A DNA stretch of 64,000 nt, from positions 129,296 to 193,295 of the forward strand of contig JBBTVB010000002.1 in assembly GCA_038063455.1 (NCBI GenBank), in the 5' to 3' direction. The notes beneath the pieces were generated by a model. It was not told where the DNA came from and made no database searches. It was given only the letters and a program-made list of their open reading frames with translations. Position numbers and translations under genes: made by a program. Below, in pieces: positions 978 to 24,454 of the stretch (position 1 is the first letter of the stretch; each line of letters starts with the position of its first letter). This DNA is from Patescibacteria group bacterium (lineage in GTDB: Bacteria; Patescibacteriota; Patescibacteriia; PEXW01).

Positions 978-2186
978 CTAATTCACCGCTTCGCTGATGT
1001 TGTAAATTGGCAGCAAGATAGAAGACACCATAAACCCGACACCCACACCCATAACCAGCAAGATAACTGGCTCGATGAGTGCCACGAGGTTACGAACCAA
1101 GGCATCTAGCTCGTTTTCATAGAATTGCGCCACCTTAATGAGCACTTGGTCCAGCCGGCCAGACTGCTCGCCTACGCTCATCATTTGCGAGAGCATCAGC
1201 GGCACGGCCTTGCTTTTGACGAAGACAGTAGTAATAGAATTGCCGTCTTCGACCTCTTTAATGGTCTTTTCAACAATTTCCCGGTACGTGTAGTTGCCAA
1301 CCACTTCTGCAGTAATTGCCAAGGCATTCGAAATCGGCACCCCGGAGGTGAGCAGGGTAGAAAGCGTGCGCGAGAAACGCGTTAGGTAAATCATGGTAAA
1401 AATCTTGCCGCCAATGGGTATTTTAAGCTTTACAATATCCAAAATGCGTTTGCCACTCTCGGTACGGCGCCACAGCACAAACCCTACAATGATGCCGATA
1501 ACAGCCAAAATGACCACGTACCACTGGTTCTTGGCAAAGTTGCTTACCGCAATAAGGATGCGCGTGCTTAGTGGCAACTCCGCGCCACCTTCGGCAAACA
1601 CTTCTAAGAGCTTGGGCAACACGAATACCACCATCACAAAACCGACGGCGACAACGGCAAAGAGCACGACGGCCGGATAAATGAACGCCCCGCGAACGCG
1701 GCTGATGATGCCGTAATCTTTTTCCCGCTGGTCAGCCAGGTACACGAGCACTTCATCCAACTTCCCCGTGGTTTCACCCGAGCGGATCATGGACACGAAG
1801 AAGTTGTTAAACACCTGCGGGTACCGGCCCATGGCTGCCGAAAGCTTAGCGCCGCCGTCGACTTCGTCCAGCACGTCGGACAGAATCATTTTAAAATGCA
1901 CGTTGTTGGTTTGGCGCACCATAATGCGCAAGGCACGGACAATGGGCACATTCGCCGAAATCATCACCGAGAGCTGGCGAGCAAAAATGACCTGCTCTTT
2001 TACCGTCACACGGTTAAACAGGTTGGCGCCCAAGAACTTGGCGCTCTTGGCCCGCTCGTGCATGCTAATAATCGTCAGCTGCTTCTCGCGAAGGGTATCG
2101 TACGCGCCAGACTCAGTAGGGGCCACCACAGCCCCTTCCACGGTTTGGCCGGCCAGATTCTTCGCACGATAGTCAAAAATTGCCAT
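978..2186 (-). CDS. pilC: Type IV pilus platform protein PilC (GspF/T2SS-F family)
   Basis: 402 aa with two GspF-like halves and three TM segments. Sits directly downstream of the pilT-like gene. Confidence 0.9.
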   Translation of the reverse strand: MAIFDYRAKNLAGQTVEGAVVAPTESGAYDTLREKQLTIISMHERAKSAKFLGANLFNRVTVKEQVIFARQLSVMISANVPIVRALRIMVRQTNNVHFKMILSDVLDEVDGGAKLSAAMGRYPQVFNNFFVSMIRSGETTGKLDEVLVYLADQREKDYGIISRVRGAFIYPAVVLFAVVAVGFVMVVFVLPKLLEVFAEGGAELPLSTRILIAVSNFAKNQWYVVILAVIGIIVGFVLWRRTESGKRILDIVKLKIPIGGKIFTMIYLTRFSRTLSTLLTSGVPISNALAITAEVVGNYTYREIVEKTIKEVEDGNSITTVFVKSKAVPLMLSQMMSVGEQSGRLDQVLIKVAQFYENELDALVRNLVALIEPVILLVMGVGVGFMVSSILLPIYNISEAVN

Positions 2187-2191
2187 ATGGT

Positions 2192-3268
2192 TTAGCCGCG
2201 GCTTACAATGTTGCGAAGACTAGCAGGGTCCAGCGCCACGGCTTCGGCATCTTGCGGCAGGATATCCCCGACGCGGACGAGTTCAGCCAAGGTTCGGTCT
2301 AACGATTCCGTACCATCTTGCCGGCTGGTCTGCATAGCATTGGCTAGCTGCAAGAACTGCCCATCCCGAATAACTGCGCGCGTGGCGGCCGCCGGGGTAA
2401 AGACCTCGGCTACTAATACGCGGCCGCCGCCAACCCGGGGCACTAAACGTAGGTTAAGCACACCCTGGAGCGCATCAGCCAATTCTTTACGAACCGTAGG
2501 CTGGTCGGCTGGGGAAAAGGCGTTCACCAAGCGCTCGATCGCCTGCACTGCCGAGTCTGCAGTGATGGTGGCAATAATAAGCTTGCCGCTGTGCAAAGCG
2601 TGCACGCAGGCACGCATGTCCTCCGTGCTATCCAGCTCGCCAATAGCAATAACGTCTACATCTTCCATATCCGTCAGCGTGAGCGCATGGCCAATAGTCG
2701 GCACGTCCGCACCCACCTCCCGCTGTTCAATCACGCTCTTCTGGCTCACGAATAAAAATTCAATGGGTTGCTCAATGCTAAGAATGTGTGCCACGCGCTC
2801 CAGGTTAATAAGGTTGACCAGCGAGGCTAGCACGGTGGTGCGACCCGCGCCGTACGGGCCAGAAATAAGCACTAACCCGTGCGGCGCACGAGCAAATGCC
2901 TCGGCACTCTTGGGCAGGCCGAGCTCGCGCGGGGTCGGGATGGCATCGGGAATGTAGCGTAGGTCCAAAGAGAGTGTCCCCTTCTGGTACATGGCGGTCA
3001 AACGGAAGCGCAATTTGCCGTCCACCGCCACGGTGGCGTGCACATCACGCTCGCGTTCGAGCGTCGCTTTCTGGCTTTCGGAAAGAATGCCATCAACAAA
3101 GCCCCGCACCACGTCCGCACTCACCACCGGCTCTTGGTCCAGCGGCACCAGCTTGCCGTCAACGCGGAGGAAGGGCGGGTTGCCCGGCACAAGGTGAACA
3201 TCAGACGCGCGGTACTGCGTGGCCTGGGTAAGTATTCGAGTGATAGCTTGCTGCTCGGAGGTTAACAT
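2192..3268 (-). CDS. pilT: PilT-family hexameric ATPase homologue with degenerate catalytic motifs
   Basis: 358 aa with PilT-like length and layout. Walker A is GPYGAGRTT (Lys replaced by Arg). The Asp box is IEQPIEF, Walker B is DVIAIGELD, and the His box is SGKLIIATITADSA (both His lost). An AIRNLIRE-like ATRAVIRDGQ motif is present. Confidence 0.8.
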   Translation of the reverse strand: MLTSEQQAITRILTQATQYRASDVHLVPGNPPFLRVDGKLVPLDQEPVVSADVVRGFVDGILSESQKATLERERDVHATVAVDGKLRFRLTAMYQKGTLSLDLRYIPDAIPTPRELGLPKSAEAFARAPHGLVLISGPYGAGRTTVLASLVNLINLERVAHILSIEQPIEFLFVSQKSVIEQREVGADVPTIGHALTLTDMEDVDVIAIGELDSTEDMRACVHALHSGKLIIATITADSAVQAIERLVNAFSPADQPTVRKELADALQGVLNLRLVPRVGGGRVLVAEVFTPAAATRAVIRDGQFLQLANAMQTSRQDGTESLDRTLAELVRVGDILPQDAEAVALDPASLRNIVSRG

Positions 3269-3284
3269 CGTGTAGGGTTCAAGT

Positions 3285-3377
3285 TTATTCTAACGAAGGC
3301 ACCCTGTACCGGAGCGTAGCGACTGGTACGGGGTGGGTGAGTATTCGAGTAATAGCTTGTTGTTCAGAAGTCAGCAT
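3285..3377 (-). other. 30-codon upstream ORF or gene remnant duplicating PilT codons 1-14
   Basis: Minus strand reads ATGCTGACTTCTGAACAACAAGCTATTACTCGAATACTCACC..., which translates to MLTSEQQAITRILT HPVPVATLRYRVPSLE*. The first 14 aa are identical to PilT (ATGTTAACCTCCGAGCAGCAAGCTATCACTCGAATACTTACC at 3268-3227), with 9 nt differences that are all synonymous. Confidence 0.5.
3300..3335. repeat. Hairpin repeat, copy 1 (ccctgYacc-ggaRcgtagcgact-ggtRcRggg)
   Basis: Stem 3302-3310 pairs with 3325-3333 around a 14-nt loop ggagcgtagcgact. A second copy at 24243-24278 has the same loop and compensatory stem changes. Confidence 0.6.
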
Positions 3378-3393
3378 TGAAAATCTAAAGTGG

Positions 3394-3837
3394 TTACTTC
3401 ATTAAACGTCGGACCTTGGCCACAACTTCGGACGGCATGAAGTGCGCTTTAATAAGGTAGTCGAGGGCGCCCAGGTCTAAGCCTTTTTGTACGTCTTCTT
3501 TTTGGCCCAAATTGGTGAGTAAAATAACTGGTACATTTTTGGTGAGTGCATTGGCTTTTACTTCTTTAAGCACGTCGAAACCGCTCTTCTTGGGCAGCAC
3601 AATATCCAGCAGCATCAGGTCGGGCACTTCACGTAGGGCCAGGGTCACGGCCTGCTCGCCATCGCTGGCCAGCACGACATGAAAACCTTCAAGTTCCAAC
3701 TTCGTTACGTACATGCCAGCCAAAAACGTATCGTCTTCAACCAGCAAAATAGTGTGTTTTTTTTCAGTCGCGGGTTTTGCGGCTGCGGCGGGAACTTTCT
3801 TCTGGAGTGGTCGCTTCGGTGTAGGCATAGGGGGCAA
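3394..3837 (-). CDS. Single-domain response regulator (CheY/PilH-like REC) with a basic N-terminal tail
   Basis: 147 aa. Motifs: ILLVEDD, phospho-acceptor context LLDIVLP, LLTNLG, DYLIK. No output domain. Located between pilB and the pilT-like gene. Confidence 0.85.
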   Translation of the reverse strand: MPPMPTPKRPLQKKVPAAAAKPATEKKHTILLVEDDTFLAGMYVTKLELEGFHVVLASDGEQAVTLALREVPDLMLLDIVLPKKSGFDVLKEVKANALTKNVPVILLTNLGQKEDVQKGLDLGALDYLIKAHFMPSEVVAKVRRLMK

Positions 3838-3846
3838 GTGAGTGGG

Positions 3847-5607
3847 TTATTCTTGAGTAGCGCGTAAGACTTCTTCCACGGTGGTTAGGCCAATAAGGGC
3901 TTTTACAAAACCGTCTTCTTTCATGGTCAGCACGCCCTGGCGCTTAGATTCGGCTTTAATATCCTGCAGGCGTGAGCCGCTGGTGATAATAATTTTCATC
4001 TCATCGGTAATTTCAATGACTTCCGCCACCACCAGGCGGCCTTTGTAGCCGGTGTTGCCACAGCGCACGCAGCCGCGGCCATGAGAGAACTGGAGCTTGT
4101 CGAGCGAGAAGTCTTTCGGGAAGGCGGACTGGGACGCCGCTTTGAGCGTCGTCAGCACAATGTCGCGTGTGGCGTCGGGTACCTCTTGCGGCTCTTTGCA
4201 ATACTCGCAAATGCGGCGCACCAACCGCTGGGCAATGATGGTAGAAAGGGACGATGCAATGAGGAACGGTTCCACTTTCATATCAATAAGCCGCGGCACG
4301 GCGCCAAAGGCATCATTGGTGTGCAAGGTGGAAAATACCAAGTGCCCGGTGAGGGCAGCGTTGACCGCGAGTTCAGCAGTTTCCGTGTCGCGGATTTCAC
4401 CGACCATGACCACGTCAGGGTCTTGGCGCAGAATCGAGCGCAACCCGTTGGCAAAATTGTAGCCCACGTCCGCATTCACCTGGCTCTGGTTCACACCCTC
4501 GGTGTGGTACTCCACCGGATCTTCCAGGGTAACAATGTTCACGTCTTCGGTGTTGATCATGCCGATGAGCGTGTACAGGGTGGTGGACTTACCCGAGCCG
4601 GTCGGGCCGGTGCTGAGCACCATGCCCTGCGTGGAAGAGAGTGATTTGACCAGCACGTCCCGCTCGCGGGCAATAAAGCCCAGGTCGTCGAGCGTGAGGA
4701 TGCGGCTGGACGAGTCGAGAATACGCATCACGACTTTTTCGTTGTTCATCAGCGGCAGGGTGGACACGCGGAGGTCAATGGACTTGCCGTCCACTTCGGT
4801 GTGGAAGCGCCCGTCTTGCGGCAAGCGCGTTTCGTCGAGCTTGAGGTTAGAAATGACCTTGATGCGTGCCACGATAGCGGCGTGCACGTAGGGTGGCAGC
4901 TTGATAGAGGTGTGCAAAATGCCGTCCACGCGGTAGCGGACGCGCGACCCCTCGACCGTGGGCTCAATGTGGATGTCGGACGCGCCGCCTTCAATAGCAT
5001 GGCGCAAAATGACCGCCACCATCTTGGACACCGGTGCGGTTTTAATAACTTCTTCAATGCCTTTATCGGCTAAGCTAATTTCGTCCAGCGCGCTAACTGT
5101 GGGGCGATCTGAGGGCTGGGTGGCGGCCAGTGCTTCTTGTACCTCAGCGCTCAAGCTAGCGTACTGCTTCAGAATGCCGCCCATCGAGTCGGACGACGCA
5201 ATGTGGTAGTCGATTGTAAAGTTGTTGTTGCGCGCTATAAATTCAATAGCTTCGAGCGCTCGGAAGTTTGTCGGGTCTACCAAGGCCACGCTCAACTTGC
5301 CTTTGTCCTTGGCAAAGGCCACCATTTGGTAGTTGCGGGCAATATCACGGGGGATAAGGTTGAGCAAGTCGGGGCCAATAACCCGTCCTTGCAGCTCGAC
5401 GTAGGGAATTTGAAAAACGTCGGCCCGGACCTTGGCCAGGTCGTCAGATTTTACAATGCCCTGCTCTTCCAGCACGCTAATGGTCGGCACACGCTTCTGG
5501 CGCGCCTGCTGTTCCGCGGCGGTAAACTGGGCGGGGGTAATGACTTTTCGCTCCAGCAGCACGCTCGCTAAGTCGCGAACGTCAGTTTTCACAAAGCTTG
5601 GGCTCAT
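3847..5607 (-). CDS. pilB: Type IV pilus extension ATPase PilB (GspE family)
   Basis: 586 aa. Canonical motifs: Walker A GPTGSGKSTT, Asp box LEDPVEY, Walker B DVVMVGEIRD, His box TGHLVFSTLHTNDA, and a tetracysteine CEYC...CVRC. Confidence 0.93.
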   Translation of the reverse strand: MSPSFVKTDVRDLASVLLERKVITPAQFTAAEQQARQKRVPTISVLEEQGIVKSDDLAKVRADVFQIPYVELQGRVIGPDLLNLIPRDIARNYQMVAFAKDKGKLSVALVDPTNFRALEAIEFIARNNNFTIDYHIASSDSMGGILKQYASLSAEVQEALAATQPSDRPTVSALDEISLADKGIEEVIKTAPVSKMVAVILRHAIEGGASDIHIEPTVEGSRVRYRVDGILHTSIKLPPYVHAAIVARIKVISNLKLDETRLPQDGRFHTEVDGKSIDLRVSTLPLMNNEKVVMRILDSSSRILTLDDLGFIARERDVLVKSLSSTQGMVLSTGPTGSGKSTTLYTLIGMINTEDVNIVTLEDPVEYHTEGVNQSQVNADVGYNFANGLRSILRQDPDVVMVGEIRDTETAELAVNAALTGHLVFSTLHTNDAFGAVPRLIDMKVEPFLIASSLSTIIAQRLVRRICEYCKEPQEVPDATRDIVLTTLKAASQSAFPKDFSLDKLQFSHGRGCVRCGNTGYKGRLVVAEVIEITDEMKIIITSGSRLQDIKAESKRQGVLTMKEDGFVKALIGLTTVEEVLRATQE

Positions 5608-6770
5608 AGCGGCACGAAAGGGTTTGCCCGGCCGGCTTTCCCGAGTTCCTGCCCGCTGGACTGGTTGCCCGCCCGGTCAACGGCGATGACGGTGTAGTAC
5701 AAAGTTTTTCCAGGGATCAGGTTTTTGTTCTCGATGCACAGCTCTTTGCTGCAGTCGCCGGTCGTGGTGGCAGCCTGATCGAGCGTGGCCACATCTTGCA
5801 CATTTTTCTGGCCCACCAGCGTGCCCAGCAACAGCGCCGCATCAGACCGAAACACGTCGTAGCGCACCACGTCGGCCGACGGTGAGGGCACCCAGGACAC
5901 CCGGACCAGATTGTTCTGGCCGTCGTAGGCGGTGGTCACGAAATCTGGCGCGTCGGGCATAGTGGCGTCGGTGCTGGTAATTTTTCCAGTCCAGGTTAGG
6001 CCGCCAATAGAGTCGGTCAGCCACACGACGGTGTAAAAATGCATGTCCGCTTTTCCACCGGCGTCATTAAAATTGGTAGTGCTGGCGTCCAGCGCTGCGA
6101 CCCGGCGACCGAGCAGGCCGGCAGCATCAGAGCGGTACACCTCAACTTTTTTGCCTTCCGCAGCACCAGGGGTTACCCACTGCAAGCGCACGCCGGCGGC
6201 ATCTGCCGCTTCGATGGTGAGCCCACCGCCGCTGGCCCCCACCTTGGCCGCAATTTGTGCCGATTGCGCGGCGCCTACCTGCTTCACGTAGTTAATGACA
6301 TAGGTCGCTGCCTGGCCGTCCACCGCCTGGGTGTAGAGGTACGACGTTGCGGTCGCGGGCAGCGTCACCAGGTTCTCATTGGTATCGCCCACCGCGCGGC
6401 TAACCCGGACCAGCGTGGCATCAAGTTTTGCCGGCGGTTTCCAGGTAAACAGAATTGCGCCGCCAGTTTGCACGTTAAAAGCTTCAACCGTGGGGGCGGC
6501 CACTTCGGTAGCCGGAATCTCGGCCGTCGCTTGGGTAATAAGCTCGGTGCCGCCTTTGGGCGAGAGCGCGTAGAACCGCGGGTCACGAAAAATTGCCTGC
6601 CCAAAATCTTTCGCTACGGTTTTGGTCTGCGTGGGGGTGCTGCCGGTGCTGGCCCCGCCGCTGCTCGACATGTTCAAGTACAGCACGTACCCGCCCAAGA
6701 GCAGGATGGGAATGCCGCCGAAGAGCAGGATTTTTTTAAGACGTTCGGGAGTTTGCTTCTGGACGAGCAT
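5604..6770 (-). CDS. Membrane-anchored protein with three FN3-like repeats (pilus-operon accessory)
   Basis: 388 aa with an N-terminal TM. Three modules of the type xLxWxxP...V(R/E)VYRS...YTV (AILFTWKPP..., GVRLQWVTP...VEVYRSD..., LVRVSWVPS...YDVFRSD...YYTVIAVD). Its stop overlaps the pilB start (ATGA at 5604-5607). Confidence 0.6.
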   Translation of the reverse strand: MLVQKQTPERLKKILLFGGIPILLLGGYVLYLNMSSSGGASTGSTPTQTKTVAKDFGQAIFRDPRFYALSPKGGTELITQATAEIPATEVAAPTVEAFNVQTGGAILFTWKPPAKLDATLVRVSRAVGDTNENLVTLPATATSYLYTQAVDGQAATYVINYVKQVGAAQSAQIAAKVGASGGGLTIEAADAAGVRLQWVTPGAAEGKKVEVYRSDAAGLLGRRVAALDASTTNFNDAGGKADMHFYTVVWLTDSIGGLTWTGKITSTDATMPDAPDFVTTAYDGQNNLVRVSWVPSPSADVVRYDVFRSDAALLLGTLVGQKNVQDVATLDQAATTTGDCSKELCIENKNLIPGKTLYYTVIAVDRAGNQSSGQELGKAGRANPFVPL

Positions 6771-6775
6771 GGCGG

Positions 6776-7363
6776 TTAGCTTTCAAAATAGTACGAGCGG
6801 AAACTAAAGCTGTAGCTATTTGGCTGGCTGGAAGATGAGGGTGAGTGAGAAATGGAAGTGAGGTCGAGCAAGGGGGCTTGGCGGGACACGACGTTCAAAA
6901 AATTCTTGAGTCCGTTGTAGTCGAGTGCGCCGCTGAGGATAACCGAGACGGTTACCGTGCGCAGGCCACCGACGCTGGCTGAGCCAGCCGCCGAGCCGCC
7001 ATCCGACACTGCGACCGAGGACAGGTCCATATTCGCATCCTTGGCAAAAGCTTGCATCTGCCGAAAAATCCCGGGCACATCGCGGCCCCGCGGCACAATG
7101 GCATTCAGGCGGGCAATATCGTCCGGCGAGACCGCATTCACCTCGTCACGCAAGCCGCGTAGCTGCTCCAGGTAGCTTTGCTGGGCCGCCAGCTGGGCTT
7201 GCTTCTGGGTATAGTCCAACCCGCCCAGCGCACGCACTTCTTTCACCCGCGGGGCGACGAACAAGAACCCGCCGATAATCAGGACCAGGGCGGAAACGCC
7301 TATGCCGAACACCAGGACATGTCGTTCGACGAAGTGTGTGAGTGAGGTAAGGGAGATGCGCAT
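6776..7363 (-). CDS. pilO: PilO-like pilus alignment protein
   Basis: 195 aa: N-terminal TM, a coiled-coil segment, then an alpha/beta domain. Position directly after pilN. Confidence 0.6.
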   Translation of the reverse strand: MRISLTSLTHFVERHVLVFGIGVSALVLIIGGFLFVAPRVKEVRALGGLDYTQKQAQLAAQQSYLEQLRGLRDEVNAVSPDDIARLNAIVPRGRDVPGIFRQMQAFAKDANMDLSSVAVSDGGSAAGSASVGGLRTVTVSVILSGALDYNGLKNFLNVVSRQAPLLDLTSISHSPSSSSQPNSYSFSFRSYYFES

Positions 7364-7364
7364 A

Positions 7365-8654
7365 CTAGCGGCTATGGTAGAAAACTTTGGGGTTCACCCG
7401 CAGGGACACGCTAAACGACACTTGTGATTTTGGGGCAGCTGCAGCTTGCCCCGGGGGGGTGTCGGTGGCTGCCGCGCTGCTCACTTTGGTGGCGCTGAGA
7501 ATAGTGGCTTGCAAAATGAAGTCGGTGGCTTTTTGGTAGGTGAGCAACTGCTTGCCAACTTCGTCAAACGTTGTGGCCGTGGCCGACATGCTCACGCTCC
7601 CGGCTACATCCACGCTTATATTACCGTAGCTCACCGTTGGCAGCGTGACCCCTTCAATCTGGGTGAAAAATTGATCCCAGTACACGTGCTGGTCCAGCGC
7701 CTTGGTAATGTCGGCTGTTCGCTGGCGCAGCACGCTGGCTTGCTGCAGCGGGCCACTTTCCAGCACAGACACCTGCTGCCCCAGTGCTGCAATTTCGGTG
7801 TCGAGGTCGGCAATCTTCGCATCCAGTGACCGTTGGTAGATGCCCAGGCCAATGGTGGTGCCCGCAACCAGCACAACCGCAGCCGCGACGATGATAGCGG
7901 CAATCAACCGATTCCTTGACGGACCTTCGGGCTGGTACTCTTGGGGCACCAAGTTGACGTTCAAGCCGGCGCCGAGAATTGGCGCGGCCTCAGAAAGTCG
8001 GTTTTGCGTTTTACCCGTTGCGGCTGGCGGGGTAAAGCCGAACGATGGAGGCGGCGGTGGCACAACCTGAGCTGGCTTCGTGCTCCAGGCAGGGGTTGGA
8101 GCCGCCGGGACTCCGGCTGGGCTTGGTGGTGCCCAGGCTGGCCGTCGCACGGGTGGCGGCGGCACAGGGGGCAAGCTCGCTGACGGCACCGACGTTACTG
8201 GTGAAGCTAGCTTTGGTGCTGGGGGCGGTGGCAGTGGTGTTGCACTTGCGTGCACTGGAGGTGTTGCCGCTATCGGGGCTGCTGGAACTTTGGGTTTTGC
8301 CTGCCCGAACATCTTGCGCAAAAAACCTTTTGCTTGCGGCGGAGCGGGCGGTGGTGCCAAACGGTCTGGCATGGTTTGCACGCGCGTCACCGGCCCAGAG
8401 GCAATGGTTGGTTTAGGTGCCGGGTACTGGACGGCTGGGTCTGACGCGGCAACGGCAGGTTTCGTCTTTGGCAAGGCAGTGGGCTTGCGCTTGAAAAGGG
8501 TCTTAAAAAATTCCAGCACCCCGCCAATGCGGTCTACCCGTTCCTGAAAAATCCGATCCTGCGGCGTGCTCATTTCCACCACATCTTTCGGCGCTTTTAC
8601 TTCGCGCTTCAGTTGCTTGTCTTTTTCCGGGAGTAGGTTGATATTCGATTCCAT
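7365..8654 (-). CDS. pilN: PilN-like protein with a Pro-rich N-terminal extension of about 220 aa and two INLLP-type motifs
   Basis: 429 aa. NINLLPE at residues 4-10 and LNVNLVPQE at residues 231-239, about 12 aa before the single TM (residues 250-273). A PilN-like periplasmic domain follows. Confidence 0.75.
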   Translation of the reverse strand: MESNINLLPEKDKQLKREVKAPKDVVEMSTPQDRIFQERVDRIGGVLEFFKTLFKRKPTALPKTKPAVAASDPAVQYPAPKPTIASGPVTRVQTMPDRLAPPPAPPQAKGFLRKMFGQAKPKVPAAPIAATPPVHASATPLPPPPAPKLASPVTSVPSASLPPVPPPPVRRPAWAPPSPAGVPAAPTPAWSTKPAQVVPPPPPSFGFTPPAATGKTQNRLSEAAPILGAGLNVNLVPQEYQPEGPSRNRLIAAIIVAAAVVLVAGTTIGLGIYQRSLDAKIADLDTEIAALGQQVSVLESGPLQQASVLRQRTADITKALDQHVYWDQFFTQIEGVTLPTVSYGNISVDVAGSVSMSATATTFDEVGKQLLTYQKATDFILQATILSATKVSSAAATDTPPGQAAAAPKSQVSFSVSLRVNPKVFYHSR

Positions 8655-8657
8655 ACC

Positions 8658-9770
8658 CTAGGTTCCCAGTTGGCGCAAAGCGAGCCCGACGGACACGGCA
8701 AAGCGCGGCCCAATTTCGTCCCACACCGGCTTCAGCTCCACCGGATACGACACGCGTGCCCAGGGGTCGCCAATGTAGGTTTTAATATTCAGCAGTTTCG
8801 TAAAGTACTCGGGCAAATTGGTAAGGTATGCCGAGCCGCCCGAGAGAATAACCTTCTCGATGCTGCGGCCTGTCCCCTGGTTTTGGTACAGGTTAAGCAC
8901 GTAGCGAATTTCGTTGGTAATAGAGTTGACCACGAACTCAATAGCTTTCGGGATGTTACTGTCGCTGGCGCCTTGGGTAGCAATAAAGAAGTCGCGCTTG
9001 AACTGCTCGGCCCGGTCGCTGCTAACGCGTAGCGTGCTCGCAATAGTTTTGGTAATAGTGTCGCCGCCCACGTCAATGGAGCGGGTAAGCATGGGAATGC
9101 CCTCGCTAAAGACCACAATATCGGTGGCCACCGCCCCAATGTCCACAATCATAATTGGTGCCTTGTCGTGGCCAATGAGTGACCGTTCCAGGGCAAAAGC
9201 TTCGGTCTCCAAGGCGACCAGCTGCAAATCGGCGGCTTTAAAAATTTCCATGTAGCGCTGCACCAAGTTCTTCGGCGCAGCCGTCAGCAGCACCTTCATG
9301 TCTTTTTGTGGCGCTTTGCTTGCATCGGGCGCTTTTTCCTGCGTGTTCTTGGCATTGGCCCCAGCCACCTTGGCGGCCAGGGAATCTTCTTTGAGCACTT
9401 CCCAATCCAAAATCATTTCGTCCACCGGCATGGGCACGAACTTCTTCGCTTCCCACTTTACCGCGGACATCAGCTCTTTGCGCGACATCTGTGGCAAAGA
9501 AATAATCGAGCTAAAAACGGTGAAGCTCGGCAAAGCGGTGACGGCGTACTTTGTGGTTACCCGCGACGCCTTGACCACCTGCTTCAGTGCTTCGCTAATA
9601 GCGCGCATTTCTTCGCCCACGCTGCCCTTCAGCAAGTCACTACGTTTTTCGGCAAAGCCGTAGGTGGTCAGCGTCGGGCGGCCGTTCAGCGCTTTTAGCT
9701 CTACGAGTTTAATCGAGGATCCGCCCACGTCGACACCGAGGTAGCTTTGTTTGGAAGAAAAAATTGCCAT
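8658..9770 (-). CDS. pilM: PilM, actin-like pilus assembly ATPase
   Basis: 370 aa. N-terminus YLGVDVGGSSIKLVELK and the overall PilM/FtsA-like pattern. Directly upstream of pilN. Confidence 0.9.
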   Translation of the reverse strand: MAIFSSKQSYLGVDVGGSSIKLVELKALNGRPTLTTYGFAEKRSDLLKGSVGEEMRAISEALKQVVKASRVTTKYAVTALPSFTVFSSIISLPQMSRKELMSAVKWEAKKFVPMPVDEMILDWEVLKEDSLAAKVAGANAKNTQEKAPDASKAPQKDMKVLLTAAPKNLVQRYMEIFKAADLQLVALETEAFALERSLIGHDKAPIMIVDIGAVATDIVVFSEGIPMLTRSIDVGGDTITKTIASTLRVSSDRAEQFKRDFFIATQGASDSNIPKAIEFVVNSITNEIRYVLNLYQNQGTGRSIEKVILSGGSAYLTNLPEYFTKLLNIKTYIGDPWARVSYPVELKPVWDEIGPRFAVSVGLALRQLGT

Positions 9771-9778
9771 GTGGGTGT

Positions 9779-12700
9779 TTACGGAAGAGTTCGGGTTGGG
9801 TTGGGTAAAGCTTTCGTAACGTCTTCTAGGCCCGGGGGTGGGTTGAGGAAGAGCCGTTCGTCAGCTATGACGCGCTCGGCAGCAGTGGTGTTCTCGCGCA
9901 AGCTGCCAATACGCTGGAAGCTCAATTGGCGGGCAAAGAGCAAACCAATAATCGTTAATGGTCGGCACGTCGGGCTGGTGACCGTACAGAGCGCTGCGTC
10001 GTTGTCATTACCGGTTTTAAAGGCCCCACCACAGTTGTTGCCGTAATTAGCTGCATTTGGGCAAGCAGCAGTGTCTGGATCGTGGCCAGCCGAAGTATCA
10101 CGACTGGTAACAATGAAAGCACCGGTTACCTTGTTTACTTCTTTGGCAATGGTCACATTGCCTTTGACGATGAACGCAATCGTCGGCAGGTCGCGGATAG
10201 AATCAGCAGCAACCATACCACTAAGGTCTGCGTCTTTCGCACGGTCTGCAGCAATAATATTATACTGAATATCTAGGTCACCGTCTACTACGACGGTCAC
10301 GCGTTGAGCGATATTATCAGTACCATTGTCTGCATATGGCAAACGCCACACCCAACGGATCTTCTCACCAGTAGTGTGCGTAGGGCACGAGCCCCCACAA
10401 GCCTTTATACGCTTCACATTAGTAAACTGGTTTGTGGCATAGCCGGTGTAAGAAAAGTACTCCTCGCTACTGCCACCGGGGTTTACCACAATGGCGCAGC
10501 CCGAGCAGGATGGGTAATGACTTGAAGCACCCGGTATAGCCACTGTGCTGGTTGGGAAAGTACCCGCGCCGGTGGCGTTTATGGTTCCGCCGGTGTTCAG
10601 GTCGCCTGTGGAGTTGCCCCAACTCGCTTCTGCGCCATCTACAGTCAGGTTGCCTTGCACGTGCACCACCTGACTTCGGAGTGGTGCCAGTTCATTAGGA
10701 ACAGGCGCGAGCAAACTGTTTAAGGGAAAAACGGGCGGGACGGTGGAACCTGTCCATTCTGGCGTCTTCCACCCGGCAAGCTCATTTATGGTCCATTCGG
10801 GTGAGATTGCATACGTCGCGGGCTTAGTCTTGTACACCATGTTGCCGAAACGGTTAACATCAAATTTTGCCGTGCCCGAATACCCTTTGACGCCATTGAC
10901 TGCGTTAGGGTAACCAGCTGCAGCGGTGTTCAATATATTCGTCAGCCCACCTACATCTAACTTCCCAAGTGCATTACGGTACGATACGGTGGTGCTACCA
11001 ACGGTCGGGAAAGGGATGGGGTCAACAACCCGATTAAGAAAACCAGCAACAGGACCCTGTAATACGCAGAACACAGAATCTGTGGCGCATGTACCCGTGC
11101 CCTTATTAATATCTTCGCCCGCGCTGGTGGGTGGGGTCCCAATAAACCCTGTTCCGGAAGATTGCACGGCACTAATTGCGTTGTTCGCCTCTATACGATA
11201 CGTGGCAACGTAACATGGTTCTAGTATGCCATCGTCATTGGGGTCGCATTCGTTATAACGAACGTTTGATAAATTTTCCGGGCTGGGCAGCTTTACATCG
11301 CCGCCGCTATACACGTTGCCAAAAAGTGTTTCGAGCCACGCAAAACCCACAAAAATAAGCGGGTTAAAGCGGATCCAGCCATAGTTACTGCTCCAGGCCC
11401 AGCCGGCCAGTTCGTAATGGTCACCGGTCCAAAAAGCATCCAGGCCATACTCTTTGCCGGTAACATTGTACACAGTTACTGCCCCACTACTTACGCTCAA
11501 CGGCATGGCCAAAGTAATAACCGTGCCGCTGCAATTAGAAACCACCGAATAGTCATTACCAATGGCAACCACTTGCCCGGCCACAATGCTACAGCTAGGC
11601 GCCACATTTACGTGCGTTGCGTCGGTGAGCGTGCCATTCTGCGACGGCGCACCGGTTAGGTAGTACCCGCGTAGCCGCACCCAGCCTTCGTCTCTATCTT
11701 TGCAATGTAGGGCAACGCTGTCGTAGTTGCACAGGTTAATAAACCGCCCCCAGCCATACACGTGCTGGCTGGCCGTGTCGTACTTGGCGGTGGGAATATT
11801 CGCCGTTGCCGCTGGGGCATTGTGGTAGGCCGCGCCGGGGGGGTTGCCGTAGTCATTATCATCTGTGTACGGGTCGGCATCGCTGCAATCAGCCAAACCA
11901 CCGCAATTGTAGATGCTATCTCGCCGTTCAAAACTCAAAAAACCTGAAAGGTTCGACCACGCGTACCCGCCAATGGGGAAGGTTTTAGCTGTCGTGGGGG
12001 ATATGGCAATGCCGCTGGCCGTAAGGTCTGGCAATTCGGTGGTGTTGCTGTGGGCTGTAGCCCCAATGCCCAAGCCAAAAAGGTTGGTACAATCCTGGTC
12101 GGGTTTGTTAATGCAGTTCAAGCTTAACCAACCAAAATTCGACGCCCAGCCATAGCCCAGAATCGGGCTAGAGCTATAGGGGGGGCTTGTGCCAATGGTT
12201 GCCCCGCCGCTATTTGCGCCAAATGCCACCCGGCTTCCGTCCAGGTGAGACCAAATAGTTGGAATTTTATCCAGCCCTGTCTGCAACGTGCCAGCTGGGA
12301 TATACGCGGTTGTTGACGGCGAAGCAACCCCGTAGGTTGTCGTAAAATCCGCATCCACTGGGTTCCACTCCCAGGGCGCGGTGCCAAGCTTCTCGGAAAA
12401 AAGCGCTAGGTGGCCGTTACCGGAATTCTTTGCGGCAACCCAGGCTTTGCCTTCGTAAAAACCAATCGATGGACTGGTGTAGGTGGTGCCAAGCTGAATA
12501 TTTTTTTGGTTTGCGTTGCAGGTTAAACTTGACGCCGCGGGCAGGCCGGTACCCACGGTGGCCGTACAGTTGGAGACGCGGAGTTTGTTGGTATACGCGG
12601 TATTAACTGAGTCTGCGCCGCCTTCATATGCGAACACCAGACGGCTGGTATTTGGACCGGTTGGCATACTAGCTACCGAAAAACTTAATGGGTACGCCCC

Positions 12701-13924
12701 AGTTGGGGTCGTAACAATAAGCGGTTCGTTTGGGGTAAGAAAACCAGGCTCGTCATACGCATTTTTGGTGCCGCCCGAACAGTTCGGCGTCGCGCCACCG
12801 GTAGTATTGTAATAGAATGGGAATACATCGACGATGCCGGTTTGGTAGCCGCCGCCCCATGTCGTAGATTCTGTTGCTGTTAAGGTATTAAAAGATATTC
12901 CCAAGGGGTAGGGAATCCCGCTCGTATCCAGCACCCTGCATGCTTGTATGCGCCGTGGCGGGATAGTGAGCAGACCGGGTATTTTTTTATCGCCAATGGG
13001 AAAAAATACCACTTTTGGCAAAGCGCCATTTTGCAAGGGGCTTGTCTCATTTGTTTTAATGATTGTATTTGCCGAACCCACAAACCCGCCACTTGCAATC
13101 CACGTTGGAGTGGAAGAAAAATTATCGGTGTACACAATACCAAGTTCGCGGTAGGGAAAAAGTGGATTCGCATTTTTTTGTACTCGGGAAGTCAAGCCCC
13201 ACACGCGTTCAGTAGAATCAGCCAAAATCTGCACGGCAACGCCAGTAATGCCAACACAATTTCTCGTATTGTTCCCGTCACAGGTTAACTTGGGTTCGCT
13301 CGCAGCGTCAGGTATCCAGGTCGTCGGGGTTTGGGATTTTAACTTTTGTATCCTGCTTTTGGTTAGCGGCTTTGTTGGCTCGTATGAGGATGCTTCCATG
13401 TCATACACGTACGACACCCAGATATCTTTCTCATTAGGGCTGACGTAAAGTGTGTAATCAAATTTTGAAACCCCGCCCGTGGTAACATTCGCAATTGAGA
13501 TGTAGGGCGTGGAGCCTTCAAGCGCATGTTGCCAAGTGAGTCCGTTATTCTCGCTAACCCGGAATTCTAAGCGATGTATGGTGCAATTGCCCCCGCAACC
13601 TGCGGTACTTACATTTTTGTTCACAAATCCAGCAACAAGCAGTTTTCTTCCACCCGCCCCTTCGGGCGTGATGTACACCATTCGTCGGTTTTGCGAAACG
13701 TCGCTCGACCAAGCAAAAGCATCTTCGTCAGTTGCGACGCTACTTCGTACGCCTAATGTATCAGTATTCCCATACTGACTCCCCGTAACCACCGGCACTG
13801 GGCTGGTGAGCTGCGCGTGAGCAACAACCGGCAAAAAAATAGTGATGCTAAAAAAGAGCCCAAAGCCGTACCAGGCTCTGGCCTTCGAAATGTTTCGCAG
13901 GAGTTTGGGTGCGTAGCTTTTCAC
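9779..13924 (-). CDS. Large secreted protein (about 1380 aa), first gene of the pilus operon; candidate pilus-associated adhesin
   Basis: The ORF track extends to 13993, but that part contains a terminator and a promoter. A GTG at 13924 gives MKSYAPKLLRNISKARAWYGFGLFFSITIFLPVVAHA/QL, a Sec signal peptide. Four G(W/Y)(A/G)WSxxxG(W/F)(I/L) motifs lie at about 11360-12160. No family recognised. Confidence 0.7.
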   Translation of the reverse strand: MKSYAPKLLRNISKARAWYGFGLFFSITIFLPVVAHAQLTSPVPVVTGSQYGNTDTLGVRSSVATDEDAFAWSSDVSQNRRMVYITPEGAGGRKLLVAGFVNKNVSTAGCGGNCTIHRLEFRVSENNGLTWQHALEGSTPYISIANVTTGGVSKFDYTLYVSPNEKDIWVSYVYDMEASSYEPTKPLTKSRIQKLKSQTPTTWIPDAASEPKLTCDGNNTRNCVGITGVAVQILADSTERVWGLTSRVQKNANPLFPYRELGIVYTDNFSSTPTWIASGGFVGSANTIIKTNETSPLQNGALPKVVFFPIGDKKIPGLLTIPPRRIQACRVLDTSGIPYPLGISFNTLTATESTTWGGGYQTGIVDVFPFYYNTTGGATPNCSGGTKNAYDEPGFLTPNEPLIVTTPTGAYPLSFSVASMPTGPNTSRLVFAYEGGADSVNTAYTNKLRVSNCTATVGTGLPAASSLTCNANQKNIQLGTTYTSPSIGFYEGKAWVAAKNSGNGHLALFSEKLGTAPWEWNPVDADFTTTYGVASPSTTAYIPAGTLQTGLDKIPTIWSHLDGSRVAFGANSGGATIGTSPPYSSSPILGYGWASNFGWLSLNCINKPDQDCTNLFGLGIGATAHSNTTELPDLTASGIAISPTTAKTFPIGGYAWSNLSGFLSFERRDSIYNCGGLADCSDADPYTDDNDYGNPPGAAYHNAPAATANIPTAKYDTASQHVYGWGRFINLCNYDSVALHCKDRDEGWVRLRGYYLTGAPSQNGTLTDATHVNVAPSCSIVAGQVVAIGNDYSVVSNCSGTVITLAMPLSVSSGAVTVYNVTGKEYGLDAFWTGDHYELAGWAWSSNYGWIRFNPLIFVGFAWLETLFGNVYSGGDVKLPSPENLSNVRYNECDPNDDGILEPCYVATYRIEANNAISAVQSSGTGFIGTPPTSAGEDINKGTGTCATDSVFCVLQGPVAGFLNRVVDPIPFPTVGSTTVSYRNALGKLDVGGLTNILNTAAAGYPNAVNGVKGYSGTAKFDVNRFGNMVYKTKPATYAISPEWTINELAGWKTPEWTGSTVPPVFPLNSLLAPVPNELAPLRSQVVHVQGNLTVDGAEASWGNSTGDLNTGGTINATGAGTFPTSTVAIPGASSHYPSCSGCAIVVNPGGSSEEYFSYTGYATNQFTNVKRIKACGGSCPTHTTGEKIRWVWRLPYADNGTDNIAQRVTVVVDGDLDIQYNIIAADRAKDADLSGMVAADSIRDLPTIAFIVKGNVTIAKEVNKVTGAFIVTSRDTSAGHDPDTAACPNAANYGNNCGGAFKTGNDNDAALCTVTSPTCRPLTIIGLLFARQLSFQRIGSLRENTTAAERVIADERLFLNPPPGLEDVTKALPNPTRTLP

Positions 13925-13949
13925 TTTTTTGTATCGAACAAGCAAAAAT

Positions 13950-13978
13950 ATTGTACCACCAAAATGCCAAAAAGTCAA
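13950..13978 (-). promoter_or_regulatory. Promoter of the pilus assembly operon
   Basis: Minus strand reads TTGACT (13978-13973), a 17-nt spacer, then TACAAT (13955-13950). Confidence 0.5.
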
Positions 13979-14007
13979 ACCAAAAATCCTCACCGCGCGG
14001 TGAGGAT
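13979..14007 (-). terminator. Intrinsic terminator of the 554-aa gene
   Basis: On the minus strand, a 9-bp stem AATCCTCACC-GCGC-GGTGAGGATT is followed by TTTTGGTTTGACTTTTT. A 14-bp perfect palindrome acgtaaatttacgt (14015-14028) lies just 3' of the stop codon. Confidence 0.6.
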
Positions 14008-14029
14008 TCTCTCTACGTAAATTTACGTT

Positions 14030-23253: not shown

Positions 23254-23347
23254 TGGCGGAGAGGGAGAGATTCGAACTCTCGATAAGGCTTTAACACCCT
23301 ATAACAGGTTAGCAACCTGCCGCCTTCAGCCACTCGGCCACCTCTCC
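23254..23347 (-). tRNA. tRNA-Ser (anticodon GCT), CCA encoded
   Basis: Manual fold: acceptor GGAGAGG/CCTCTCC, anticodon loop TTGCTAA, long variable arm, T-loop TTCGAAT. Confidence 0.9.
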
Positions 23348-24081: not shown

Positions 24082-24158
24082 GCGCTCGTAGCTCAGCTGG
24101 ATAGAGCGCAAGCTTGCGGAGCTTGAGGTCGCAGGTTCAACTCCTGCCGAGCGCACCA
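24082..24158 (+). tRNA. tRNA-Arg with anticodon GCG, CCA encoded
   Basis: Manual fold: acceptor GCGCTCG/CGAGCGC, D-arm GCTC/GAGC, anticodon stem CAAGC/GCTTG, loop TTGCGGA, T-loop TTCAACT. Confidence 0.85.
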
Positions 24159-24365: not shown

Positions 24366-24454
24366 GGTGGGATGGCGGAGTGGTCTATCGCGCTGGTCTT
24401 GAAAACCAGAAGGGTGAATAGCCCTCGGAAGTTCGAATCTTCCTCCCACCGCCA
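24366..24454 (+). tRNA. tRNA-Ser (anticodon TGA), CCA encoded
   Basis: Manual fold: acceptor GGTGGGA/TCCCACC, anticodon loop CTTGAAA, long variable arm, T-loop TTCGAAT. Confidence 0.9.

What the first reader, a model, noticed from the sequence alone, without database searches (positions are those of the whole stretch)
9779..13978. A secreted protein of about 1380 aa is the first gene of the pilM-pilC operon and carries a repeated GWAWS...GWI motif
An intrinsic terminator (13979-14007) ends the upstream gene. A TTGACT-17-TACAAT promoter (13950-13978) immediately follows. The large gene therefore heads the pilus assembly operon and ends 8 nt before pilM.

It has a Sec signal peptide, not a prepilin leader. 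Four spaced motifs lie at about nt 11360-12160: GYGWASNFGWLSL, GGYAWSNLSGFLSF, VYGWGRFINL and LAGWAWSSNYGWIRF. Co-transcription with the assembly machinery suggests a pilus-associated adhesin or tip/anchor component, in a system that lacks PilY1, PilQ and minor pilins in this window.
Basis: partly seen in the sequence, partly recalled or inferred. Interest (0 to 1): 0.55.

Follow-up and report, generated by a model that had tools for sequence, protein, structure and literature searches.

The report
Unnamed secreted partner of Patescibacteria pili
The large gene in front of pilM encodes a secreted protein from a previously unnamed family that, in every related sequence examined, sits directly in front of the type IV pilus assembly genes of ultrasmall (Patescibacteria/CPR) bacteria, and here it carries an extra, very fast-evolving sugar-enzyme-like propeller domain, which makes it a good candidate for the part of the pilus system that recognises the host cell.

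Summary
A 1382-aa ORF lies on the minus strand at 9779-13927, with a GTG start. It has a Sec-type signal peptide and no prepilin leader. It follows a 13-bp terminator hairpin and a TTGACT-17-TACAAT promoter with an extended -10. It ends 8 nt before pilM. The GW motif is real: 3 strict copies against 0.0008 expected.

The window is a Patescibacteria MAG. Residues about 576-1382 are collinear with a family of mostly ~600-aa secreted proteins. That family has no Pfam or NCBIfam model and no detectable PDB relative. Its signature is GWxWSxNxGWIxF hairpins, WLETxFG, YxNALGKxD and a C-terminal ExIIYDGRLxANPPPGL...LP tail.

A metagenome scan using only the C-terminal signature gave 66 loci. In all 66, pilM follows on the same strand, then pilN-O-B-T-C wherever the flank reaches.

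Residues about 39-575 occur only in a narrow clade. They are predicted to form a six-bladed sialidase-like β-propeller. Against the closest relative this domain is 37% identical, while PilM, PilB and PilC are 97-99% identical.

Best reading: a non-pilin extracellular accessory protein of the pilus, functionally like PilY1, with a conserved docking module and a variable ligand-binding head. Physical pilus association and the actual function are inferred, not shown.

The parts
13982..14011 (-). Intrinsic-terminator-like hairpin (13 pairs, then a T run) ending the upstream 554-aa gene
   Evidence: and the sequence. Relatives each have a hairpin plus T run at the same place.
13950..13978 (-). Sigma-70-type promoter: TTGACT, 17 nt, TG-n-TACAAT (extended -10)
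   Evidence: 10 of 12 matches, TG present. The TGGTA[C/G]AAT -10 is invariant in all six rows of the alignment. TTGACT is present in window, L004, L001 and L014; L008 has TTGCTT, and the L006 row begins downstream of the -35.
9779..13927 (-). CDS of the 1382-aa secreted protein, GTG start, TAA stop at 9781-9779
   Evidence: 100% identical to NCBI 'MAG: hypothetical protein AAB515_01160 [Patescibacteria group bacterium]'.
13814..13927 (-). Signal peptide, aa 1-38 (n-h-c layout, AHA|Q cleavage motif). Not a prepilin leader.
   Evidence: Sequence. No G[FM]TLxE motif. The N-terminal region is conserved in relatives. Rule-based; no predictor was run.
12203..13813 (-). Clade-specific N-terminal domain, aa ~39-575. 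Predicted six-bladed sialidase-like β-propeller with an Asp-box-like FRVSENNGLTW at aa 122-132. Hypervariable.
   Evidence: AF2 pTM 0.79. Foldseek against PDB: 55 hits at E<=1e-3, probability 1.0, to sialidases, GH93, GH117 and polysaccharide lyases. Absent from ~600-aa relatives. 37% identity against 97-99% for PilM/B/C. No nucleotide similarity to L004 across 12232-13758.
11348..12202 (-). GW-hairpin repeat region, aa 576-860, holding the four motifs (591-603, 653-666, 723-732 with 747-754, 841-854). All-β.
   Evidence: AF2 pLDDT about 80-89 for aa ~715-855. The motif occurs in many Patescibacteria secreted proteins. No Pfam model and no PDB sequence match.
10673..11347 (-). Conserved middle region, aa 861-1085: FAWLETLFGNVYSGG, YRNALGKLDVGGL, NRFGNMVYKT
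   Evidence: Invariant among relatives and shared with the ~600-aa forms. AF2 confidence is low here.
9782..10672 (-). Conserved C-terminal β-rich module, aa 1086-1382. Includes the family-defining last ~180 aa and the tail ERVIADERLFLNPPPGLEDVTKALPNPTRTLP.
   Evidence: phmmer: 169 representative clusters, and in nearly all of the best 150 the match reaches the last few residues. Relatives give sub-threshold Pfam DUF7305 hits (12 of 52). No structural match in PDB or BFVD.
8658..9770 (-). pilM, starting 8 nt after the stop of the large gene
   Evidence: Pfam PilM_2, E 8.5e-44; sequence.
978..8654 (-). Rest of the pilus assembly cluster: PilN-like 429 aa (7365-8654), PilO/GspM-like 195 aa (6776-7363), fn3 protein 388 aa (5604-6770), pilB (3847-5607), receiver-only response regulator (3394-3837), pilT (2192-3268), pilC (978-2186)
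   Evidence: The same order appears in all related loci.
1..605 (-). Type IV pilin gene (MQNRKGFTLIELL...), cut by the window edge
   Evidence: TIGR02532, E 1.6e-9.

Best explanation
The gene encodes a Sec-exported, non-pilin accessory protein of the Patescibacteria type IV pilus system. It is the long form of a previously unnamed family that is genomically locked to the pilM-N-O-B-T-C cluster.

**Proposed mechanism (inferred)**
1. The signal peptide is cleaved and the many paired cysteines are oxidised.
2. The conserved C-terminal half (WLET, YxNALGK, a β-rich DUF7305-like core and the NPPPGL...LP tail) docks the protein onto the pilus or its extracytoplasmic assembly parts.
3. The Trp-rich GW hairpins and, in this clade, the added sialidase-like six-bladed propeller form an exposed ligand-binding head, most likely for glycans. 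This head diversifies rapidly and could set which host surface the pilus engages.

Functionally this resembles PilY1/PilC: a Sec signal, a conserved pilus-interacting part and a variable sensing or adhesive part. There is no sequence or fold relationship to PilY1.

**Shown:** gene structure, conserved promoter, family membership, gene-neighbourhood linkage, predicted fold of the N-domain, and the divergence pattern.

**Inferred:** export, physical association with the pilus, and ligand binding.
For: **Linkage to pilus genes**
- 66 of 66 metagenome loci recovered with the pattern [SA]Ex[IV]I[YA]DGR[LI] have pilM on the same strand, starting 34-941 nt after the end of the match.
- pilN-O-B-T-C follow in order wherever the flank allows.
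- The same holds for long-form relatives and for P0010 and P0012.
- P0009 lies beside a prepilin peptidase and three N_methyl (prepilin-type) genes.

**Extracytoplasmic location**
- N-terminal hydrophobic signal in the window protein and in all 40 complete family ORFs.
- 28 Cys in close pairs and G+A+S+T = 37.5%. This is within the range reported for Saccharibacteria pilus proteins (36-39%) and above their cytoplasmic PilB (25-28%) (PMC11623550).

**Modular architecture**
- The last ~180 aa are conserved and C-terminal in nearly all of the 150 listed relatives, which range from about 125 to 1521 aa.

**Variable head**
- The N-domain is a sialidase-like propeller.
- Against the closest relative it is 37% identical, compared with 74-80% for the rest of the protein, 81-85% for PilN, PilO and the fn3 protein, and 97-99% for PilM, PilB and PilC.
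- DNA similarity vanishes exactly over 12232-13758 inside an operon that is otherwise 78-86% identical.

**Own conserved promoter**.
Against: - There is no experimental or structural evidence of contact with the pilus.
- The AF2 model of the C-half is only moderate (pLDDT 66), and its conserved middle part is not modelled.
- PilY1-type genes normally sit with minor pilins, not in front of pilM. A position ahead of pilMNO would equally suit a structural part of the assembly machine.
- The sialidase Arg triad is not conserved across relatives: only R241 is nearly invariant. This argues against sialidase catalysis but proves nothing about binding.
- The family is absent from that position in the one Saccharibacteria T4P locus checked, where pilM is the first gene. 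It is therefore not indispensable for every Patescibacteria pilus.
- Some of the 66 loci are near-duplicates (L042-44, L050/51, L070-73, L075/76).
Confidence: 0.55

Rival explanations
1. It is a structural part of the pilus machine in the cell envelope. In these secretin-less, monoderm-like cells it would act as a wall- or S-layer-spanning collar or anchor, taking over the PilP/PilQ/TsaP role. The GW repeats would bind the cell's own wall, and the C-terminal module would bind the PilN/PilO ectodomains.
For: - It always sits directly in front of pilM-N-O, the alignment subcomplex.
- No PilQ or PilP is found.
- It is single-copy in the window.
- Aromatic-rich β-hairpin repeats resemble wall-binding repeats in general appearance (own knowledge; Pfam CW_binding_1 does not match).
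- The C-half evolves at about the same rate as PilN, PilO and the fn3 protein.
Against: - A hypervariable propeller at 37% identity next to 97-99% identical cytoplasmic parts is unusual for an internal machine part.
- Family lengths range from 527 to 2333 aa with swapped N-terminal modules.
- The Saccharibacteria locus checked lacks a gene at this position.
- There is no membrane anchor after signal cleavage.
Confidence: 0.25
2. It is a cargo or partner protein released or presented by the pilus, in the manner of TcpF or CofJ in type IVb pili. A short terminal peptide (here the NPPPGL...LP tail) would dock onto the tip pilins, and the protein would then act on the host surface, perhaps as a glycan-cleaving enzyme.
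For: - The Sec signal with no anchor suggests a soluble protein once the signal is cleaved; the cleavage site itself is rule-based.
- It is encoded inside the pilus operon, as tcpF and cofJ are (own knowledge).
- An 'LPxWxEVAP'-type tail also ends GW-repeat proteins with a different architecture (Ig/PKD domains), as a portable signal would. One of these lies ~5 kb from pilB-pilC.
- The best fold matches of the propeller are glycoside hydrolases and lyases.
Against: - The whole ~280-aa C-terminal module is conserved, not just the tail.
- No catalytic constellation could be identified.
- The cell has no outer membrane for a cargo to cross.
- The tail similarity is short and could be convergent.
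Confidence: 0.12
3. It is an unrelated surface protein that is merely syntenic with pilM in one narrow lineage, so the linkage carries no functional meaning.
For: Among the long forms the whole neighbourhood (ClpB, M48 peptidase, LemA) is syntenic, so their linkage alone is weak evidence.
Against: - Linkage persists in distant short forms with different neighbourhoods, and in 66 of 66 loci.
- The 8-nt gap to pilM and the conserved promoter placed before this gene, not before pilM, also argue against it.
Confidence: 0.03

Closest known systems
PilY1 / PilC (Pseudomonas, Neisseria, Myxococcus): non-pilin tip-associated adhesin and priming factor of type IVa pili
   Same: - Large protein with a Sec signal rather than a prepilin leader.
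- Encoded within the pilus gene set.
- One conserved part and one variable part.
- Contains a β-propeller.
- A candidate adhesin at the same logical position in the system.
   Different: - No Pfam PilY1/Neisseria_PilC match.
- The propeller is N-terminal, six-bladed, sialidase-like and is the variable part. In PilY1 the C-terminal propeller is the conserved part (own knowledge).
- PilY1 is not among the 50 Foldseek hits listed, of 55 at E<=1e-3.
- The gene sits before pilM, not with the minor pilins.
- The conserved C-terminal module has no known relative.
PilX2 / PilX1 of Nanosynbacter lyticus TM7x (Saccharibacteria): large pilus proteins with lectin-like C-terminal domains (PMC11623550)
   Same: - Patescibacteria pilus-associated proteins with an added β-propeller or lectin-like domain.
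- No recognisable PilD signal.
- Proposed host-glycan adhesins; ΔpilX2 reduces host binding.
   Different: - PilX1 and PilX2 have a pilin-like N-terminal helix and globular pilin domain and are encoded among pilins.
- The PilX2 propeller is seven-bladed and RCC1-like.
- The present protein has a cleavable-looking Sec signal, GW repeats and the NPPPGL module.
- No sequences were available for a direct comparison.
Pfam DUF7305 (PF23981), an uncharacterised domain
   Same: 12 of 52 family members give weak hits (best E 3.2e-4, 21 bits). These cover profile positions ~26-172 of 185, in the β-rich core just before the C-terminal tail.
   Different: - All hits are below the 27-bit gathering score, and the window protein itself gives none.
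- No paper mentions DUF7305, so the hit adds no functional information.
GH33 sialidases and related six-bladed propeller CAZymes (NanC 4yz3, NanH, pseudaminidase 2w38, FoRham1 lyase 7esl, GH93, GH117)
   Same: Predicted fold of aa ~39-575 (Foldseek probability 1.0, E down to 4e-6) and one Asp-box-like motif, SENNGLTW.
   Different: - Only ~7-12% identity and TM-scores of 0.2-0.5.
- No Pfam BNR or sialidase hit.
- The Arg triad is not conserved among relatives.
- The domain is fused to a pilus-linked module.
TcpF / CofJ, secreted partners of type IVb pili
   Same: Sec-exported soluble proteins encoded in the pilus operon that dock on tip pilins through a short terminal peptide (own knowledge).
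   Different: No homology; a type IVa-like system with PilT; monoderm-like envelope; the candidate docking tail is C-terminal and unproven.

Membership tests
Type IV pilin / pseudopilin | Class III signal: short basic leader, G at -1, F/M at +1, E at +5, hydrophobic helix (Pfam N_methyl / TIGR02532) | tested here: not met
   The motif scan finds it only in the gene at 1-605, not in this ORF. No N_methyl hit. The N-terminus has the n-h-c layout with AHA|Q.
PilY1 / PilC | C-terminal PilY1/Neisseria_PilC β-propeller domain | tested here: not met
   No Pfam or NCBIfam hit at E<=0.01 or E<=1. The propeller is N-terminal and sialidase-like, and PilY1 is absent from the 50 Foldseek hits listed.
PilY1 / PilC | Physical association with minor pilins at the pilus tip; needed for piliation or adhesion | not testable with these tools
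   Needs co-folding, pull-downs or genetics.
GH33 sialidase / BNR propeller | Six-bladed β-propeller fold | tested here: met
   AF2 pTM 0.79; 55 PDB hits at E<=1e-3, led by a PL42 rhamnose-glucuronate lyase (7esl) and numerous sialidases. This is a predicted structure from a 16-sequence alignment.
GH33 sialidase / BNR propeller | Catalytic Arg triad, Tyr/Glu nucleophile pair, FRIP motif, several Asp boxes | tested here: inconclusive
   One clean Asp-box-like motif (aa 125-132). In the 16-sequence alignment only R241 is nearly invariant and no FRIP motif is present. No structural superposition of active sites was possible.
Pfam DUF7305 | Score at or above the 27-bit gathering threshold | tested here: not met
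   The window protein gives no hit. Relatives score 12-21 bits.
Sortase (LPXTG) or other C-terminal sorting-signal substrates | Motif followed by a hydrophobic segment and a basic tail | tested here: not met
   The protein ends ...KALPNPTRTLP* with nothing after it. Family members end 0-12 residues after the LPxW/LPVIR motif.
Choline- or cell-wall-binding repeats (CW_binding_1); Listeria-type GW modules | Pfam repeat models | tested here: not met
   No hit at E<=1 for the repeat region or for repeat-rich relatives. No PDB sequence match for the P0009 repeats. The resemblance is only in general appearance.
The unnamed Patescibacteria 'pre-pilM' family defined here | N-terminal signal, GWxWSxNxGWIxF hairpins, WLETxFG, YxNALGKxD and a C-terminal ExIIYDGRLxANPPPGL..LP tail | tested here: met
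   All elements are present and collinear with the ~600-aa members.
The unnamed Patescibacteria 'pre-pilM' family defined here | Gene immediately upstream of, and co-directional with, pilM | tested here: met
   8-nt gap in the window. 66 of 66 metagenome loci. Exception: P0009, which lies beside pilD and pilins.

The most novel reading that the evidence does not exclude
This family would be the Patescibacteria-specific host-recognition subunit of the type IV pilus. It would be a new class of non-pilin tip protein that docks through the DUF7305-like/NPPPGL module. Its interchangeable, hypervariable heads would determine which host cell-wall glycans an episymbiont can attach to, and hence its host range. 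The heads include GW hairpins, the sialidase-like propeller and, in other lineages, other inserts, together with the adjacent 'family A' fibre-like protein. The shared 'LPxWxEVAP' tail would be a portable pilus-docking tag.
Probability: 0.3. Interest if true: 0.8.

Novelty: new variant of a known kind. Interest (0 to 1): 0.62.

Why it matters
Type IV pili are the best-supported attachment and motility organelle of Patescibacteria. In Saccharibacteria they are essential for epibiotic growth (PMC10633639) and for host binding (PMC11623550). Almost all of that knowledge comes from Saccharibacteria.

The present family is unannotated. It has no Pfam or NCBIfam model and no detectable PDB relative by sequence or fold search, and the literature I could search does not mention it. 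Yet it is locked to the pilus operon in many other Patescibacteria lineages.

It gives a concrete candidate for two open questions. How does a secretin-less CPR pilus gain its accessory or adhesive function? Which gene carries host specificity? Its hypervariable propeller cassette, set in an otherwise 97-99% conserved operon, can be tested directly by comparative metagenomics and, once a host-epibiont pair is cultured, by genetics.

It also supplies a signature ([SA]ExIIYDGRLxANPPPGL) that could seed a new protein-family model and improve annotation of thousands of 'hypothetical proteins'.

Tried and rejected
**Searches that gave nothing useful**
- Pfam and NCBIfam on the whole protein and on the repeat region: no hits.
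- PDB sequence searches with three queries: nothing. The queries were the 6-sequence family profile, the 52-sequence profile and the P0009 repeats.
- Foldseek of the C-half model against PDB and BFVD: only noise. The best hit was a phage tailspike at E 4e-3 and TM 0.12, and the BFVD hits had TM below 0.13. I do not claim a β-helix or tailspike relationship.
- tblastn of a family member against plasmids: no match.
- Literature searches for DUF7305 and for CPR pilM-operon descriptions: nothing describing this family.

**Hypotheses tested and rejected**
- The 834-aa gene upstream of a short-form member corresponds to the window's N-domain or to the window's upstream 554-aa gene, that is, a fusion or fission. 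Rejected by BLASTP and by an HMM of 25 such genes.
- Paralogues exist inside the window: none found.
- Sortase-type anchoring: rejected, because nothing follows the C-terminal motif.

**Left open**
- Whether pilM has its own promoter could not be settled by conservation. The promoter-like sites inside the gene lie in strongly conserved coding sequence, so the test is uninformative.
- The second word-indexed homologue search did not return the family's own long forms, and the third did not return the short forms. That tool's recall is therefore patchy. The counts of family size rest on the exhaustive phmmer run.

Full report
**1. What is in the sequence**

The minus strand carries an ORF listed as 9779..13993. 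Its product aligns with relatives from the codon at 13927. That codon is GTG in the window, and in L004 and L006, and ATG in L001. The protein is therefore 1382 aa.

The identical NCBI protein is 'MAG: hypothetical protein AAB515_01160 [Patescibacteria group bacterium]'. It was called 31 codons shorter and so lacks the signal peptide.

The N-terminus has a basic n-region, a 17-residue hydrophobic core and AHA|Q. No prepilin G/FxxxE motif is present.

Upstream lie a 13-pair hairpin with a T run (14011-13982) and TTGACT-17-TACAAT with a TG extension (13978-13950). This site ties with two intragenic sites as the top-scoring promoter match in an 8-kb scan and is the only one with a TG extension.

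The -10 (TGGTA[C/G]AAT), the -35 in the four rows where it can be read, and the start position are conserved in relatives. Those relatives share only 35-59% protein identity, and some have unrelated genes inserted upstream. Each also has its own hairpin plus T run just before the -35.

The gene stops 8 nt before pilM. Downstream follow:
- a PilN-like 429-aa gene
- a PilO/GspM-like 195-aa gene
- an fn3 protein
- pilB
- a receiver-only response regulator
- pilT
- pilC
- a pilin gene cut by the window edge

**2. The motif**

Four motif copies lie at aa 591-603, 653-666, 723-732 and 841-854. Three satisfy a strict pattern, against 0.0008 expected in shuffles. They are invariant among relatives.

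The motif G[YFW]xWSxNxGW[IV]x[FL] recurs in many Patescibacteria secreted proteins. In P0009 it forms tandem arrays with a period of roughly 35 residues. It has no Pfam model and no PDB sequence relative.

In the AF2 model this region is all-β with good confidence.

**3. Family**

Word-indexed and exhaustive searches found 17 long-form clusters (1270-1415 aa, plus fragments). Another ~150 clusters share only the last ~180 residues. In nearly all of these the match reaches the last few residues, and most intact members begin with an N-terminal hydrophobic signal.

The ~600-aa forms are collinear with window residues ~585-1382:

| Element | ~600-aa forms | Window protein |
|---|---|---|
| First GW hairpins | two, at the mature N-terminus | aa 591-666 |
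| Degenerate pair | GWAKV...GIIRF | GWGRF...GWVRLRG |
| Last GW hairpin | present | aa 841-854 |
| WLET block | PWLETQFGSVYS | FAWLETLFGNVYS |
| NALGK block | YKNALGKID | YRNALGKLD |
| NR-GN block | NRYGN | NRFGN |
| β-rich core | present | present |
| C-terminal tail | ERIIYDGRLIANPPPGL...LPVIRDFEF | ERVIADERLFLNPPPGL...LPNPTRTLP |

Twelve of 52 members give sub-threshold hits to Pfam DUF7305 in the β-rich core. Nothing is published on that domain.

The only organism name recovered beyond 'Patescibacteria group' is Candidatus Komeilibacteria.

**4. Linkage to the pilus genes**

This is the decisive test.

Long forms at 32-59% identity all precede pilM wherever the flank reaches that far. Their whole neighbourhood is syntenic, so this alone is weak evidence.

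Distant short forms with other neighbourhoods behave the same way:
- P0010 and P0012 directly precede pilM.
- P0009 lies next to a prepilin peptidase and three N_methyl (prepilin-type) genes.

A metagenome scan with only the C-terminal pattern returned 66 confirmed loci. tblastn with Pil proteins showed pilM on the same strand 34-941 nt after the match end in all 66. pilN-O-B-T-C followed in order wherever the flank allowed. Some loci are near-duplicates, but about 55 are distinct.

Family ORFs in these loci have a median length of 604 aa (range 527-2333), and all complete ones carry an N-terminal hydrophobic segment.

In 25 of 27 loci with enough upstream sequence, a second large secreted-protein gene abuts the family gene. 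This 'family A' is 455-1447 aa and forms one BLAST cluster. So 'first gene of the operon' holds for the window's lineage but not generally.

The window's upstream 554-aa gene is not detectably related to family A.

In the Saccharibacterium Southlakia, pilM is itself the first gene of the T4P1 locus. The family is therefore not universal in the phylum.

**5. The clade-specific N-domain**

Residues ~39-575 are absent from the short forms. AF2 gives pTM 0.79. Foldseek gives 55 PDB hits at E<=1e-3 with probability 1.0. These are six-bladed propellers: sialidases, pseudaminidase, GH93, GH117, and rhamnose-glucuronate and ulvan lyases. Paramyxovirus attachment proteins also appear.

One Asp-box-like motif is present (SENNGLTW). 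The sialidase Arg triad is not conserved among 16 relatives. I therefore read the domain as a binding module, or at least not a sialidase.

Divergence against the closest relative, L004:

| Protein or region | Amino-acid identity |
|---|---|
| PilM, PilB, PilC | 97-99% |
| PilN, PilO, fn3 protein | 81-85% |
| GW, middle and C regions of this protein | 74-80% |
| N-terminal propeller | 37% |

At the DNA level the region is 78-86% identical, except for three blocks with no detectable similarity:
- 12232-13758, the propeller
- 10359-10767, aa ~1054-1190
- 14209-15490, the middle of the upstream 554-aa gene

This cassette-like hypervariability is what one expects of a surface that faces hosts or phages.

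**6. Mechanism**

*Shown:* a Sec-type N-terminus, paired cysteines (28), 37.5% G+A+S+T, modular architecture, linkage, a conserved promoter, and a hypervariable propeller.

*Inferred:* the conserved C-half docks the protein to the pilus or its extracytoplasmic assembly parts. The GW hairpins and the propeller form the exposed, ligand-binding end, which probably binds glycans.

This works like PilY1/PilC, or like the Saccharibacteria PilX2 adhesin. It is not a member of either family (membership table).

Rival readings and my estimates:

| Reading | Confidence |
|---|---|
| Non-pilin extracellular accessory or adhesin (best explanation) | 0.55 |
| Envelope-spanning or anchoring machine part replacing PilP/Q | 0.25 |
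| Pilus-presented cargo docking through the C-terminal tail | 0.12 |
| Meaningless synteny | 0.03 |

**7. Novelty and verdict**

The protein belongs to an unnamed, unmodelled family. Its C-terminal half has no detectable structural relative. No description was found in the searchable literature.

The kind of thing it is, a non-pilin accessory or adhesin of type IV pili, is known. I therefore rate it a new variant of a known kind. It is of solid interest for CPR biology, because it is a testable candidate for host recognition outside Saccharibacteria.

Noticed in passing
window 14030-15694 (minus strand): The upstream 554-aa gene encodes another secreted, Thr/Ser/Gly/Asn-rich protein with no Pfam or NCBIfam hit. 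It keeps its place in all long-form relatives (463-647 aa). Its middle part (14209-15490) has no nucleotide similarity to the closest relative, although both ends do. It is a second hypervariable cassette next to the pilus operon. Its mature N-terminus (FTNPGC..NCN..APLFL.P) is conserved among relatives.
   Followed up: partly
L015-L067 (e.g. L027 4634-7138, L017 4862-7882, L063 2745-7088); L010 7492-9996: In 25 of 27 short-form loci a large (455-1447 aa) co-directional secreted-protein gene abuts the family gene, with a gap of mostly -17 to +39 nt. All 25 fall in one BLAST cluster ('family A'). Many mature N-termini read A-W-Q-G/E-P-T..PP..N, and the body has tail-fibre-like repeats. This is a second unannotated, pilus-operon-linked family. 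It is not detectably related to the window's proteins.
   Followed up: partly
C-termini of P0161, P0162, P0163 and P0165 compared with family members (e.g. P0043, P0065); window 9782-9814: A terminal 'LPxWxE[VI]AP' tail ends many family members. It also ends GW-repeat proteins with a different architecture (Ig_Rha78A_N and PKD domains, no NPPPGL module). P0163 lies ~5 kb from a pilB-pilC pair (L013). It may be a portable C-terminal docking or sorting tag in Patescibacteria. The window protein has the variant KALPNPTRTLP.
   Followed up: partly
window 13835-13927: The public annotation of the identical protein (P0001, 1351 aa, starting MPVVAHAQL...) begins 31 codons downstream of the conserved start and therefore loses the signal peptide. 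This looks like a mis-called start.
   Followed up: yes
L008 (CAZAMC010000003.1): This MAG is titled 'uncultured Gammaproteobacteria bacterium'. Yet the locus has the same ClpB-M48-LemA-...-large gene-pilM...pilC-pilin order as the Patescibacteria relatives, and its large protein is 35% identical to the window's. The label is probably wrong, or the contig was mis-binned.
   Followed up: no
L001 7582-9807; L003 120-1166; L006 8609-9805: In some relatives the gap between the upstream secreted-protein gene and the large gene holds inserted genes: Bro-N and RhuM-family genes in L001, the RhuM-family gene alone in L003 (whose contig starts there), and a 398-aa gene on the opposite strand in L006. 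The promoter in front of the large gene is retained. This spot seems to be an insertion hot spot.
   Followed up: no
window 3394-3837 (minus strand): A receiver-only response regulator (147 aa) sits between pilB and pilT. It keeps that position in every related locus whose gene calls were read, long and short forms alike (L001/L002/L003, L004/L005, L010, L014).
   Followed up: no
window 5604-8654 (minus strand): The PilN-like protein is unusually long (429 aa; weak hit to the Amuc_1101 PilM-like family). The PilO-like protein hits GspM weakly. A 388-aa fn3-containing protein occupies the place where PilP would be. All three diverge faster (81-85% identity) than PilM, PilB and PilC (97-99%) against the closest relative.
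   Followed up: partly
window 10359-10767 (aa ~1054-1190 of the large protein): A second stretch inside the otherwise conserved C-terminal half has no nucleotide similarity to the closest relative. It overlaps the segment with indels in the protein alignment (GNLTVDGAEASWGNSTGDL...SSHYPSCSGC).
   Followed up: no
window 23257-23347 (minus strand), 24082-24155 and 24366-24451 (plus strand): Three tRNA genes are the only Rfam matches in the window.
   Followed up: no
P0029, P0083, P0093 and relatives (N-termini): A subgroup of short-form family members carries a Cys-rich DUF4215 repeat (CGDGxVQxPNE...) right after the signal peptide. This is another example of N-terminal module swapping in the family.
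   Followed up: no
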